DNA from: a virus | Taxonomy: Duplodnaviria; Caudoviricetes | DNA length: 40,827 nucleotides | Direction: 5' to 3' (one strand) | IMG/VR virus record: IMGVR_UViG_3300030059_002417 | Location: 1 to 40,827 of that record | Shown: positions 15,670 through 18,346 of the stretch, piece after piece | How the letters are laid out: each line of letters opens with the position of its first letter | Numbering within the stretch: position 1 is the first letter of the stretch | Notes under the pieces: model-generated | The model's input: the letters and a program-made list of their open reading frames with translations, nothing else | What the model was told of the DNA's origin: nothing | The model's database searches: none | Position numbers and translations under genes: made by a program

Positions 15670-15841
15670 AATAAAAGAACTAGTCCCACGATGCGATGAG
15701 TGCAATTCAAAAGATGTGTACAGAAAGCAAGACGCATCTTGGAGCAAGAAAACACAAGGTTGGACACAAGTTGAAAGTATCGAATACTACTGCCTCCAGT
15801 GTGGAAATTCTAGAGTGGATGTTGGGGAGGAGTTTTATTAA
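15662..15841 (+). CDS. Small zinc-ribbon protein
   Basis: CDEC...CLQC; TAATG coupling to the MTase. Confidence 0.65.
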   Translation: MPKIKELVPRCDECNSKDVYRKQDASWSKKTQGWTQVESIEYYCLQCGNSRVDVGEEFY

Positions 15842-17037
15842 TGCTTAGACACGTTGATTTGTGTTCGGGGATCGGGGGCTTTGCTCTCGGTTTCCAATGG
15901 GCAGAGTTGTCCAAAACAATAATGTTTTGCGACACTGAGAAGTGGTGTCGTGAAATCCTAGCGAAGAATTTTCCAAACGTACCAATAACTAACGATGTAA
16001 AGGAGTTAGCAAATGACCCAGAGAGACTTGTTCCCGACCACGATATCCTCACAGCAGGATATCCATGTCAGCCGTTCTCAGTTGCGGGACGGCAAAAAGG
16101 CGAGAAAGATGACCGCCACATCTGGCCGTACATCTTTAGAATTATTGCATGCAAAAGACCCACTTGGTGCGTTTTCGAAAACGTTTATGGTCACGTTGCC
16201 TTGGGTCTCGACAAAGTGCTCGCTGACTTGGAAAGTGAAGGCTACTCCACAAGGACGTTTATTGTACCAGCTTGTGCCAAAGACGCACCCCATCGAAGAG
16301 ACCGACTCTGGATTATCGCCAGAGTTATGGCCGACTCCGAGAGTGGGGGGCGAGGAAGGAATGGAGACCTTGACGAAACGCAAGGGAGTTCGCAAAGCGA
16401 TGCAACACAATCTGACAGCTTCGGTGGAATATCATCAAGACCCGACATTGTGGCCGACACCACTTTCCTCGGATTACAAGAACATGGATACAGCAAATCA
16501 GGAAAGTTTGTCGAAGGCAGTCAAGATGTGGCCGACTCCGAGAGTGAGCGACACCGAGGGAGCAGTAGTGAAGAACGTGGAGATGAACAACGGATCGTTT
16601 TCTCGCACGAACAAGGACGGAGTTCGGTGGGGAGTGAAGTTGAAGGACGCAGTTCATCATGTGGAGAAGATGTGGCCGACTCCGACAGCGACGACGAACG
16701 GAGCAGGGAAAAATCCAGACAATCCGAGGGGGATACATCAAGGGAACGCACTGGCGACGGCAGTTTCGATGTGGCCGACTCCGACGACGAGGGATCACAA
16801 GGGGGGATACATCGGGGGGAGAATTCGGAACGGCAAAGTTTCGATGGACACTCTGGACGTAGCCGTTCAACACACCGACAACCAGAACAAGACTTCTGGG
16901 CAGTTGAACCCGACGTGGGTCGAGTGGCTCATGGGATACCCAGAAGGGTGGACAGACTTAAAGGATTAGGAAATGCAATCGTGCCACAAATTTCCATGCA
17001 GATTGGTCTGGCGATAAAAGAGGAGATTGAGAGGTAA
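15841..17037 (+). CDS. DNA (cytosine-5) methyltransferase, catalytic (alpha) polypeptide lacking a clear motif IX
   Basis: Motif I DLCSGIGG, IV GYPCQPFS, VI FENV, VIII PHRRDRLW, X LGNAIVPQ; middle is S/G/E/R-rich with VAD[S/T] repeats. Confidence 0.92.
   Translation: MLRHVDLCSGIGGFALGFQWAELSKTIMFCDTEKWCREILAKNFPNVPITNDVKELANDPERLVPDHDILTAGYPCQPFSVAGRQKGEKDDRHIWPYIFRIIACKRPTWCVFENVYGHVALGLDKVLADLESEGYSTRTFIVPACAKDAPHRRDRLWIIARVMADSESGGRGRNGDLDETQGSSQSDATQSDSFGGISSRPDIVADTTFLGLQEHGYSKSGKFVEGSQDVADSESERHRGSSSEERGDEQRIVFSHEQGRSSVGSEVEGRSSSCGEDVADSDSDDERSREKSRQSEGDTSRERTGDGSFDVADSDDEGSQGGIHRGENSERQSFDGHSGRSRSTHRQPEQDFWAVEPDVGRVAHGIPRRVDRLKGLGNAIVPQISMQIGLAIKEEIER
16013..16969 (+). CDS. Nested +1-frame MTase beta polypeptide with five WPTP modules and motif IX
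   Basis: AAGGAG at 16000-16005, 7 nt before ATG; 318 aa open inside the MTase gene; C-terminal GQLNPTWVEWLMGYPEGWT is motif IX-like. Confidence 0.8.
   Translation: MTQRDLFPTTISSQQDIHVSRSQLRDGKKARKMTATSGRTSLELLHAKDPLGAFSKTFMVTLPWVSTKCSLTWKVKATPQGRLLYQLVPKTHPIEETDSGLSPELWPTPRVGGEEGMETLTKRKGVRKAMQHNLTASVEYHQDPTLWPTPLSSDYKNMDTANQESLSKAVKMWPTPRVSDTEGAVVKNVEMNNGSFSRTNKDGVRWGVKLKDAVHHVEKMWPTPTATTNGAGKNPDNPRGIHQGNALATAVSMWPTPTTRDHKGGYIGGRIRNGKVSMDTLDVAVQHTDNQNKTSGQLNPTWVEWLMGYPEGWTDLKD
16325..16790 (+). repeat. Five dispersed direct repeats TGGCCGAC(T/A)CC bounding variable modules
   Basis: TGG starts at 16328, 16451, 16529, 16673 and 16772; GATGTGGCCGACTCCGA is identical in copies 3-5. Confidence 0.9.
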
Positions 17038-17585
17038 TGCCACTTAGGGATAAAGAAAAAATAAGGGAGCGACAGAGAAAATGGTATCAAGAAAATAAAG
17101 AAAAAATTAAAGAGCGACAGAAAAAATTGTACGAAGCAAACAAAGAAAAAATAAGGGAGCGAAATAAAAAATATAGGGAGGAAAACAAAGAAAAAATTAA
17201 AGAGCGAAAGAAAAAATATAAGGAGAAAAACAAAGAAAAATATAACGAGTATCACAAAAAATATAAAGAAGAAAACAAAGAAAAATATAACGAGTATCAC
17301 AAAAAATATAAAGAAGCAAACAAAGAAAAAGTAAGCGAGAGAGGTAAAAAATATAGAGAAGCAAACAAAGAAAAAATTAAAATGTTAGATAAAAAATATA
17401 GAGAGAAAAACAGAGAAAAAATATTAGAGCGACAGACGAAATCTAGAGAAAATTTGACGGATTATTATGTTAAACGTATTTTAATCGACAGAACTGATTT
17501 AACTCATAAAGATATACCTCAAGGATTGATTGAGGCAAAGAGAGAATTAATTAAAATCAAACGGTTTATAAGAGAGGAGACGTAA
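17037..17585 (+). CDS. K/E/R/Y-rich 15-aa repeat protein, paralog A
   Basis: Nine 45-bp units at 17052-17456 (KEKxxExxKKYxExN), then LTDYYVK...LTHKDIPQGLIE domain. Confidence 0.8.
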   Translation: MPLRDKEKIRERQRKWYQENKEKIKERQKKLYEANKEKIRERNKKYREENKEKIKERKKKYKEKNKEKYNEYHKKYKEENKEKYNEYHKKYKEANKEKVSERGKKYREANKEKIKMLDKKYREKNREKILERQTKSRENLTDYYVKRILIDRTDLTHKDIPQGLIEAKRELIKIKRFIREET

Positions 17586-18346
17586 TGCCTCATGCGTGTC
17601 CAATAATAAGGAAAGAATATAAAGAAGAAAACAGAGAAAGGATATCAGAATACCAGAAAAAATATTACCAAGATAACAAAGAGCGTATAGCCAAGCGTGA
17701 TAAAGAGTATCGGGAAAACAATAAAGGACGTAAGTGTTCAATAAGAGAGAAGGAGTATAATAAAAAATATCATCAAGAAAACAGAGAAAGGATATCAGAG
17801 CGACAGAGAAAATATAGAGAAGAAAACAGAGAAAAATATTTAAAGAGTCAAAGAGAATGGTACGAAGCAAACAAAGAAATAATATCAGAGCGTTGGAGAA
17901 CACGATACAAAGAAAAAGCAACAGAGCAAAGGAGAAAACATAGAGAAGAAAACAGAGAAATAATATTAGAGCGTGAGAGAAAATGGAGAAAAGATAATAA
18001 AGAAAAAGAAAGCGAGCGAAAGAAAAAATGGAGAAAAGAAAACAGAGAAAAACACTTAGCTCAACAAAAAAAATATAGAGAGGATAATAGAGAAAGAAAC
18101 AGTAAGTGGTCTAAAAAATATTACAAAGAAACATTAAAGGAGAAGTTGAATAAATGTAAAGAAGATCTGAGTGATAGTTATGTTAAAAGTCTTTTAACTG
18201 TCGATAGCAGTTTAACTCATAAAGACATACCTCAAGGATTGATTGAGGTTAAGAGAGAATTAATGAAAATCAAACGGTTTAAAAAAGGGAGAACCAGAAA
18301 TGAAAAATGTAGTAGAACTAAGAACCCAACTTGCAATCGCTTTTGA
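17585..18346 (+). CDS. K/E/R/Y-rich 15-aa repeat protein, paralog B
   Basis: About ten ExNRExxxxxxxKY-type units, then LSDSYVK...LTHKDIPQGLIE. Confidence 0.8.
   Translation: MPHACPIIRKEYKEENRERISEYQKKYYQDNKERIAKRDKEYRENNKGRKCSIREKEYNKKYHQENRERISERQRKYREENREKYLKSQREWYEANKEIISERWRTRYKEKATEQRRKHREENREIILERERKWRKDNKEKESERKKKWRKENREKHLAQQKKYREDNRERNSKWSKKYYKETLKEKLNKCKEDLSDSYVKSLLTVDSSLTHKDIPQGLIEVKRELMKIKRFKKGRTRNEKCSRTKNPTCNRF

What the first reader, a model, noticed from the sequence alone, without database searches (positions are those of the whole stretch)
16013..16969. Modular, dual-frame C5-methyltransferase: nested +1-frame subunit with a cassette array of five candidate target-recognition modules
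Seen: the MTase ORF has motifs I, IV, VI, VIII and X, but its variable region reads as low-complexity linker and motif IX is not evident. A 318-aa +1-frame ORF lies wholly inside it and has its own AAGGAG RBS 7 nt before the ATG. It encodes five modules, each starting WPTP and ending Lxx[A/S]V (41, 26, 48, 33 and ~42 codons), with unrelated cores, and ends in motif IX-like LNPTWVEWLMGYPEGWT. Known: M.EcoHK31I is a heterodimer whose motif-IX beta chain is encoded in an alternative frame of the alpha gene; Bacillus phage multispecific MTases (M.SPR, M.phi3TI) carry tandem TRDs; C5 TRDs contain a conserved T-L-type dipeptide. Inference: this locus combines both principles. Each WPTP module would be a mini-TRD, giving one enzyme up to five specificities for broad anti-restriction protection, while the alpha frame merely reads through the array.
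Basis: partly seen in the sequence, partly recalled or inferred. Interest (0 to 1): 0.92.

Follow-up and report, generated by a model that had tools for sequence, protein, structure and literature searches.

The report
Overprinted methylase subunit with shuffled modules
A marine phage DNA-methylase gene carries a second, conserved gene in a shifted reading frame, whose product is predicted to complete the enzyme and holds five short modules from a library that related phages reshuffle; each module likely gives the enzyme one more DNA target to shield from host restriction enzymes.

Summary
Observation confirmed. Alpha (15841-17037) has C5-methyltransferase motifs I-VIII and X. Beta (16013-16969, +1 frame, AAGGAG 7 nt before ATG) has five W.TP modules and motif IX. 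The layout is conserved: 475 of 602 viral loci parsed (redundant set). Over the array only the beta frame is under protein selection, while alpha avoids stops; over motifs IV-VIII both frames are constrained. Arrays hold 1-7 modules from 138 families of near-fixed length, reshuffled between close relatives and shared across phyla. In other relatives modules lie in-frame between motifs VIII and IX, the canonical target-recognition slot. An alpha-beta complex is predicted (0.90, best control 0.01; possibly from likeness to solved methylases). That each module adds a target is inferred (about 0.68): modules match no known target-recognition domain (TRD) by sequence or fold, and a word-depletion test gave only leads (GATC, GGCC, GCSGC). 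Both principles are known separately (M.EcoHK31I; Bacillus multispecific methylases); ten literature searches did not find the combination. This scan already noted the family in four earlier findings on other genomes. New variant of a known kind.

The parts
15841..17037 (+). Alpha chain, 398 aa: C5-methyltransferase motifs I (15856-15879), IV PCQ (16063-16071), VI ENV (16177-16185), VIII (16291-16305), X (about 16957-16989); no motif IX
16000..16015 (+). AAGGAG ribosome-binding site and ATG of beta, embedded in alpha motif III (DVKE)
   Evidence: start ATG in 89 and GTG in 4 of 97 loci; alpha Lys codon AAG in 60 of 60 against 226 of 378 elsewhere; the Asn/Asp codon before the start ends in T in 86 of 86 (related loci, not independent)
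16013..16969 (+). Beta chain, 318 aa, +1 frame: N-region, five modules, motif IX
   Evidence: (6335 hits of 7966 candidates)
16157..16279 (+). Beta residues 49-89: conserved helix and hairpin overprinted on alpha motifs IV-VIII, predicted to pack on alpha 136-153
16328..16450 (+). Module 1 (41 aa), family G14/F12
16451..16528 (+). Module 2 (26 aa), family G21/F15
16529..16672 (+). Module 3 (48 aa), family G5/F8; weak association of this family with GCSGC depletion, not seen in the window itself
16673..16771 (+). Module 4 (33 aa), rare family (also in L020 and P0003)
16772..16903 (+). Module 5 (44 aa), family G1/F1, also in a Salmonella plasmid (L162); its WPTP head (251-262) is the only module part in the predicted interface
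16904..16954 (+). Motif IX (LNPTWVEWLMGYPEGWT) in the beta frame, predicted to pack on alpha motif X and the N-terminal helices
16330..16875 (+). Alpha-frame filler (residues 164-345) over the array: kept open, weakly conserved as protein

Best explanation
This phage locus encodes two conserved overlapping reading frames whose products are predicted to form one heterodimeric DNA cytosine-C5 methyltransferase, and the five modules of the nested chain are likely interchangeable target-recognition units that make the enzyme multispecific. Shown by sequence: alpha holds the SAM-binding and catalytic motifs and motif X; beta has its own start signals, a constrained N-region, the modules and motif IX; modules are gained, lost and reordered in whole codons among relatives. 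Predicted: beta docks on alpha through residues 49-89 and motif IX. Inferred: one W.TP head at a time sits at the DNA-facing small-domain position and its basic, glycine-rich core reads one short target; alpha's filler loops out; recombination at the shared module-head DNA edits the array; methylation of phage DNA protects it against several host restriction enzymes.
For: Architecture: 475 of 602 viral loci nested +1 (the set repeats contigs), 62 of 88 genome, plasmid and phage loci. Selection over the array is on beta: amino-acid identity within module families 0.80 in beta against 0.52 in alpha, beta higher in 34 of 34 families. Over motifs IV-VIII four-fold-site heterozygosity of alpha falls from 0.65 to 0.37 and 0.26 (90 loci). 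Library: 742 unique cores, 138 families, 1-7 modules in 408 complete arrays; near-fixed family lengths, e.g. 34 aa in 13 of 13 and 43 aa in 8 of 8; 85% of 249 modules net positive; 35 of 56 families recur outside the marine viral set, 12 in the alpha-frame set. Shuffling: identical arrays in only 11 of 32 pairs with >=95% identical catalytic domains and 2 of 77 at 90-95%; order reversals for F0/F8, F7/F9, F15/F20; identity of L020 to the window begins at a module head. Position: 72 of the 120 best homologues of L219 carry 1-4 modules in-frame between motifs VIII and IX; a model of one such chain aligns to M.HhaI (Z 23.2, rmsd 2.8, 237 residues; motif IX region pLDDT about 97). Complex: score 0.90, best of 3 controls 0.01; that mark was reached by 116 of 157 solved and 2 of 215 mismatched pairs (only roughly applicable: own alignments, SAM riding along); runs share at least 56% of contacts, partner pLDDT at least 50; as halves of a split enzyme the pass may come from likeness to solved methylases. 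Several families never occur last (F0 0 of 34, F2 0 of 25, F6 0 of 13) yet are conserved, so upstream modules are in use. Precedent: Bacillus phage methylases array several TRDs in one chain (PMC12707154, PMC8936443, passages). Weak support: the top depleted words for three well-sampled families are palindromes, GATC (G4, t -4.6, passes Bonferroni 4.52), GGCC (G0, t -4.0 to -4.4) and GCSGC (G5, t -3.5 to -4.3).
Against: No activity, translation or methylome data. No module family hit SPbeta MtbP or the EcoHK31I-like chains; MtbP's T-L/T-V dipeptides lie late in each stretch of its variable region, whereas TP opens each module here (by eye). Modules are low-confidence in both folds (blocks of pLDDT 47-66; whole beta 59, pTM 0.24). 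Only the last module's head is in the predicted interface. The word test is not robust: matched pairs gave 2 of 5 (G4-GATC), 12 of 20 (G0-GGCC) and 4 of 7 (G5-GCSGC); the well-sampled families G1, G2 and G3 gave no passing depletion; several passing words come from families in 3-5 lineages; GATC loss shows no C-to-T signature; the window carries G5 but has GCSGC O/E 1.15; the CCAG signal did not replicate. Two papers place the predicted TRD of M.EcoHK31I in alpha.
Confidence: 0.68

Rival explanations
1. Heterodimer as above, but only the module next to motif IX reads DNA; upstream modules are reserve cassettes brought into place by deletion or recombination.
For: Only module 5's head is in the predicted interface; an in-frame 75-nt deletion between 10-nt repeats occurs in L020; some families are mostly or always last (F14 8 of 8, F18 5 of 5).
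Against: Families that are never last (F0, F2, F6) are as conserved in the beta frame as the others; 1-7 modules are kept with alpha stop avoidance throughout.
Confidence: 0.12
2. The modules are general DNA-binding or tuning peptides; together they give a relaxed-specificity methylase (broad C or CC methylation), not one target each.
For: Modules are short, basic and predicted poorly ordered; other prophage C5 methylases have relaxed specificity (PMC3925955, PMC5537653, passages; about 700 aa, a different family); most module families show no word signal.
Against: Family-specific cores and lengths are kept across phyla and across frames, and an array almost never repeats a family (the 4 cases among 97 are parsing splits of one module).
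Confidence: 0.12
3. The array serves a non-DNA role (for example contacts with host defence proteins), and specificity resides elsewhere, such as in the alpha chain as proposed for M.EcoHK31I.
For: No sequence or fold match of modules to known TRDs; EcoHK31I's TRD is predicted in alpha (PMC2836561, PMC3404938).
Against: Alpha between motifs VIII and X is unconserved filler here, leaving no other candidate TRD; in-frame forms place the modules in the VIII-IX slot.
Confidence: 0.05
4. One polypeptide made by two programmed frameshifts (alpha I-VIII, then beta modules and IX, then alpha X), not a heterodimer.
For: Natural forms exist with the frame switch at other places.
Against: Beta has conserved start signals upstream of motif IV and is constrained where alpha's catalytic motifs are also needed, so both frames of the same bases must be read; alpha avoids stops over the whole array.
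Confidence: 0.03

Closest known systems
M.EcoHK31I (YGGCCR), natural alpha/beta C5 methyltransferase
   Same: Beta encoded wholly inside alpha in another frame; alpha has motifs I-VIII and X, beta motif IX (PMC2836561, PMC3404938, passages). An E. coli locus found with a primer from that paper (L247; 309 + 176 aa; both N-termini match the paper's primers) has the same +1 shift. Motif IX aligns weakly (E 0.002, probability 14%); the beta N-region links through a second subtype (95.5% probability between subtypes; 10.7 bits to L247 beta, 0 of 500 shuffles, subtype picked by a motif I chose, so partly circular).
   Different: L247 beta has no W.TP module; its TRD is predicted in alpha; it lies beside a restriction endonuclease and has one target. 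Beta starts at alpha codon 104 there and 58 here. Here the selected variable sequence is in beta and is a tandem, shuffled array.
Bacillus phage multispecific C5 methyltransferases (M.SPRI, M.phi3TI, M.rho11sI, M.H2I, SPbeta MtbP)
   Same: Orphan phage enzymes with several short recognition units in tandem before motif IX (PMC12707154, PMC8936443, passages). Unit sizes of about 38-54 aa, equal size for equal specificity and tolerance of rearrangement are recalled from Trautner 1996, which was not held.
   Different: Single chain in one frame; a handful of TRDs against 138 module families here; no detected sequence similarity of the modules to MtbP.
M.AquI (two-chain C5 methyltransferase, CYCGRG)
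   Same: Alpha I-VIII plus a second chain with part of the variable region, IX and X (PMC3404938, passage); 25 of 602 viral loci of this family have that split.
   Different: The window keeps motif X in alpha; in the family's AquI-like forms that I inspected (L149, L151) beta still begins inside alpha's catalytic motifs and carries modules.
PHROG 363 and PHROG 1008; Paenibacillus phage gene pairs such as BLOOM_56/57
   Same: Both frames are already deposited as 'DNA cytosine methyltransferase' in some Paenibacillus phage records.
   Different: Annotation only; PMC6070908 (passages) lists the genes without discussing nesting or modules; beta is unannotated in C72C1, Lc-Nu, yong1, WillSterrel, SchottB and two plasmids.

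Membership tests
DNA cytosine-C5 methyltransferases (PF00145) | Motifs I, IV (PC), VI (ENV), VIII and X intact | tested here: met
DNA cytosine-C5 methyltransferases (PF00145) | Motif IX present | tested here: met
   In beta: Pfam spans it in in-frame homologue L219; confident in the model that aligns to M.HhaI; weak match to EcoHK31I-like motif IX
DNA cytosine-C5 methyltransferases (PF00145) | SAM-dependent 5mC formation in DNA | not testable with these tools
   needs an assay
M.EcoHK31I-type nested heterodimer | Beta wholly nested in an alternative frame, with own start; IX in beta, I-VIII and X in alpha | tested here: met
M.EcoHK31I-type nested heterodimer | Both chains made and required for activity | not testable with these tools
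   selection on both frames and a predicted complex are indirect
M.EcoHK31I-type nested heterodimer | Target-recognition region in alpha (as predicted in the two papers read) | tested here: not met
   alpha 164-345 is unconserved filler; selection there is on beta
M.EcoHK31I-type nested heterodimer | Paired restriction endonuclease | tested here: inconclusive
   none among 26 window proteins scanned with Pfam; small ORFs were not scanned; L247 has one
Bacillus phage multispecific C5 methyltransferases | Tandem short units between motifs VIII and IX | tested here: met
   before motif IX in beta; between VIII and IX in 72 of 120 homologues
Bacillus phage multispecific C5 methyltransferases | Units of fixed size that can be lost or rearranged (recalled) | tested here: met
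Bacillus phage multispecific C5 methyltransferases | Each unit specifies one DNA target | tested here: inconclusive
   word-depletion association
Bacillus phage multispecific C5 methyltransferases | Single polypeptide in one frame | tested here: not met
Bacillus phage multispecific C5 methyltransferases | Sequence homology of units to their TRDs | tested here: inconclusive
   0 of 56 module profiles hit SPbeta MtbP at E 1e-3; one enzyme tested, short cores

The most novel reading that the evidence does not exclude
Phages across many bacterial phyla share a library of well over 100 plug-in DNA-recognition peptides of 25-55 residues, stored in an overprinted frame that gene callers often miss and swapped at a common W.TP head. 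Each adds one methylation target (leads: G4 GATC, G0 GGCC, G5 GCSGC), so a phage's array records the restriction systems of its hosts, and the library is a natural kit for programming C5-methylase specificity.
Probability: 0.55. Interest if true: 0.88.

Novelty: new variant of a known kind. Interest (0 to 1): 0.72.

Why it matters
If the modules are specificity units, multispecific anti-restriction methylation is not a Bacillus curiosity but a common phage strategy hidden by annotation, and M.EcoHK31I's two-frame layout is one member of a very large family. The array offers a direct test of how a peptide of 25-55 residues sets C5-methylase specificity, one module at a time, and a source of new 5mC specificities. 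It is also a clear natural case of hundreds of bases under two-frame constraint that still tolerate cassette exchange. Without a methylation assay the specificity claim remains an inference.

Tried and rejected
AlphaFold of beta alone: pLDDT 59, pTM 0.24; Foldseek of it found nothing at E 0.001. Beta profile A1 and last-module-plus-IX profile A3 against PDB sequences: no meaningful hit. Fragment alignment A4 was misaligned and not used. A tree of the catalytic domain did not finish, so shuffling rests on pairwise identity bins. Word test: the first-pass signals (77 loci, no lineage control) for CCAG/CCWGG (F5, F8), CGNCG and CAGG did not hold across lineages; the within-lineage permutation is inflated by substructure and was not relied on; matched pairs were null. 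The word test used 221 of 602 loci: 408 had complete arrays, 355 had at least 3.5 kb of flank, 221 remained after removing duplicates. Joints in laid contigs were not read as module deletions, because their sides were mostly short and may come from other organisms. The Radlinska/Dziewit prophage methylases (PMC5537653, PMC6536676, PMC3925955) were considered and set aside as a different family of about 700 aa. A recalled claim on Lc-Nu methylation could not be traced (listing only). Module parsing is by regular expression and has some splits (e.g. KTGG tails); family numbers depend on thresholds (56, 138).

Full report
Setting. The window is a 41-kb phage genome segment with terminase, portal, PolA, UvrD, SNF2 and primase genes. 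Its large terminase is 58.5% identical to that of Pelagibacter phage HTVC027P and 62% to phage 023Pt_psg01; the stretch is held by marine metagenomes. The host is not determined.

Observation. Alpha (15841-17037) has motifs I, IV, VI, VIII and X and matches PF00145 (E 8.8e-37, residues 3-242) and M.HhaI (E 7e-18, residues 2-159). Beta (16013-16969) lies in the +1 frame with AAGGAG 7 nt upstream and holds five WPTP modules (41, 26, 48, 33, 44 aa) and LNPTWVEWLMGYPEGWT. The module heads are a DNA repeat.

Beta is a gene. It has 6335 homologues among 7966 scored candidates. Of 159 first records, 144 had both diagnostic motifs; 143 were nested in +1 and one (L093) had a broken alpha. In the larger set of 602 viral loci (redundant), 475 were nested +1, 25 had motif X on beta, 1 was in-frame, 1 shifted by +2, 42 lacked alpha within the locus and 58 had no motif IX match. 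Among 88 genome, plasmid and cultured-phage loci, 62 were nested +1. The start is ATG in 89 and GTG in 4 of 97 distinct loci, and synonymous alpha codons are fixed to keep the RBS and ATG (AAG 60 of 60; NAT 86 of 86; loci are related). Over motifs IV-VIII alpha's four-fold sites are constrained (heterozygosity 0.65 before the overlap, 0.37 and 0.26 within). Over the array, beta is the selected frame (identity 0.80 against 0.52; 34 of 34 families; differences per beta codon position 0.18, 0.13, 0.41), and alpha only avoids stops (0 of 2932 at-risk codons; about 697 expected). Alpha must stay open to reach motif X.

The array is a shuffled library. 408 complete arrays hold 1-7 modules (20, 100, 182, 77, 20, 2, 7) from 742 unique cores in 138 families, 73 with more than one member. 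Lengths are near-fixed per family, and 35 of 56 first-defined families recur outside marine viruses, for example in Paenibacillus phage Bloom, a Paenibacillus plasmid and a Salmonella plasmid. Pairs with nearly identical catalytic domains mostly differ in array (11 of 32 identical at >=95%, 2 of 77 at 90-95%). L020 becomes near-identical to the window exactly at the head of module 3 and has a 75-nt in-frame deletion between 10-nt repeats. Recombination at the head repeat is inferred from this.

Three layouts place the modules. In A (the window) beta carries modules and IX. In B beta also carries X. In C alpha carries IX and X, often with modules in-frame between VIII and IX (72 of the 120 best homologues of L219), yet all 5 C loci examined still have an open +1 frame across motifs IV-VIII that ends in one or more modules. 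Twelve module families were found in both the beta-frame and the alpha-frame sets. A model of a C chain (P0171) has pTM 0.79 and aligns to M.HhaI at Z 23.2 (rmsd 2.8, 237 residues); motif IX is confident, the modules are not. So the modules occupy the slot that sets specificity in C5 methylases (PMC3404938, passage), but their fold is untested.

Complex. Alpha plus beta scored 0.90 against a best control of 0.01; this mark was reached by 116 of 157 solved and 2 of 215 mismatched pairs (roughly applicable only); runs share at least 56% of contacts and partner pLDDT is at least 50. Halves of a split enzyme can pass by likeness to solved methylases. The interface uses beta 49-89, 251-262 (head of the last module) and 285-318. 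In M.EcoHK31I, N-terminal deletions of 42 or more beta residues were reported to abolish activity by weakening association (PMC2836561, passage), which fits a docking N-region.

Do modules set targets? I tested whether module families track word depletion in flanking phage DNA (221 of 602 loci after filters, median flank 9 kb, 248 words, 19 families). In a mixed model with all families, GC and kinship, G4-GATC passed Bonferroni (t -4.6 under both kinships; O/E 0.27 with, 0.90 without; lower in 5 of 7 mixed lineages); G0-GGCC (t -4.0 to -4.4; lower in 8 of 11) and G5-GCSGC (t -3.5 to -4.3; lower in 4 of 4) were top-ranked but below the line. Against: matched pairs 2 of 5, 12 of 20 and 4 of 7; nothing for G1, G2, G3; other passing words (CASTG, ACGG, CGGC, CAGC) come from families in 3-5 lineages; GATC loss lacks a C-to-T signature and may reflect host; the window has G5 but no GCSGC depletion. 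These are leads, not assignments. The window itself is short of CCGG (42 against 118 expected), CGCG (20/82) and GCGC (42/95).

Comparison. An E. coli locus found with a primer from PMC2836561 (L247) has alpha 309 aa, beta 176 aa in +1 and an adjacent endonuclease, but no W.TP module. Both papers read place its predicted TRD in alpha. The window shares the layout and probably the beta N-region and motif IX, so it works like M.EcoHK31I but differs in where the variable sequence lies. It resembles Bacillus multispecific methylases in logic (PMC12707154, PMC8936443, passages), but no module profile hit SPbeta MtbP and it is not a single chain, so I do not file it as a member.

Literature. Ten searches found no description of the nested module array. 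Seen: passages of PMC2836561 (plus supplement 1 in full), PMC3404938, PMC8936443, PMC12707154, PMC11954522, PMC5537653, PMC6536676, PMC3925955 and PMC6070908; the rest as listings. Trautner 1996 was not held; Lee 1995, REBASE and subscription journals were not seen. Four earlier notes of this scan describe the same family on other genomes; they are not independent evidence.

Verdict. The nested subunit and the shuffled library are well supported (about 0.95). One target per module is the most likely mechanism (about 0.68) and is untested. New variant of a known kind; interest 0.72.

Noticed in passing
window 17037-17585 and 17585-18346 (+): Two tandem K/E/R/Y-rich repeat proteins directly after the methylase, paralogous at their C-termini (both end in a similar LTHKDIPQGLIE motif); no Pfam hit, only weak PHROG hits.
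   Followed up: partly
L244 1988-2386, L246, L243, L245, L160: Unannotated nested +1 ORFs with W/L-P-T-P modules in cultured phages WillSterrel, SchottB, Lc-Nu, yong1 and C72C1; usable for virion methylome tests.
   Followed up: partly
L219, L242, L174: Layout C: the array is split between frames, with the first module(s) on a short beta and the rest plus motif IX on alpha; the frame-switch point migrates along the gene.
   Followed up: yes
L196, L215-L217, L220-L229, L233, L239: A second subtype of beta N-region (W-P-x-S-G-x-M-x-x-G), homologous to the window's type (probability 95.5%) and closer to EcoHK31I-like beta.
   Followed up: yes
P0047: A four-module beta in the genome named by NCBI as Candidatus Puniceispirillum marinum IMCC1322, with families G0, G4 and G1 by eye.
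   Followed up: no
P0065, P0102: Betas with an unusually long (about 150 aa) insert in place of a module, possibly a helical DNA-binding domain.
   Followed up: no
family F13/G7 (e.g. L001, L010): A short module starting LHTP that is always first (8 of 8) and lacks the terminal L..V helix; may be a linker or a degenerate unit.
   Followed up: no
L003, L066, L067, L119, L093: Variants at or near the catalytic motif (PCT, PCP, PCQS) and one frameshifted alpha among relatives.
   Followed up: no
window overall: Depletion of CCGG, CGCG, GCGC, ACGT, GGCC and of several 6-bp palindromes (CCATGG 0/13.5, GTCGAC 0/10, CTGCAG 2/17.5), typical of restriction avoidance.
   Followed up: partly
window 16875-16968: Many unrelated contigs in marine runs match the motif IX stretch, far more than the rest of the gene, hinting that the family is common there (depth is not a copy number).
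   Followed up: no
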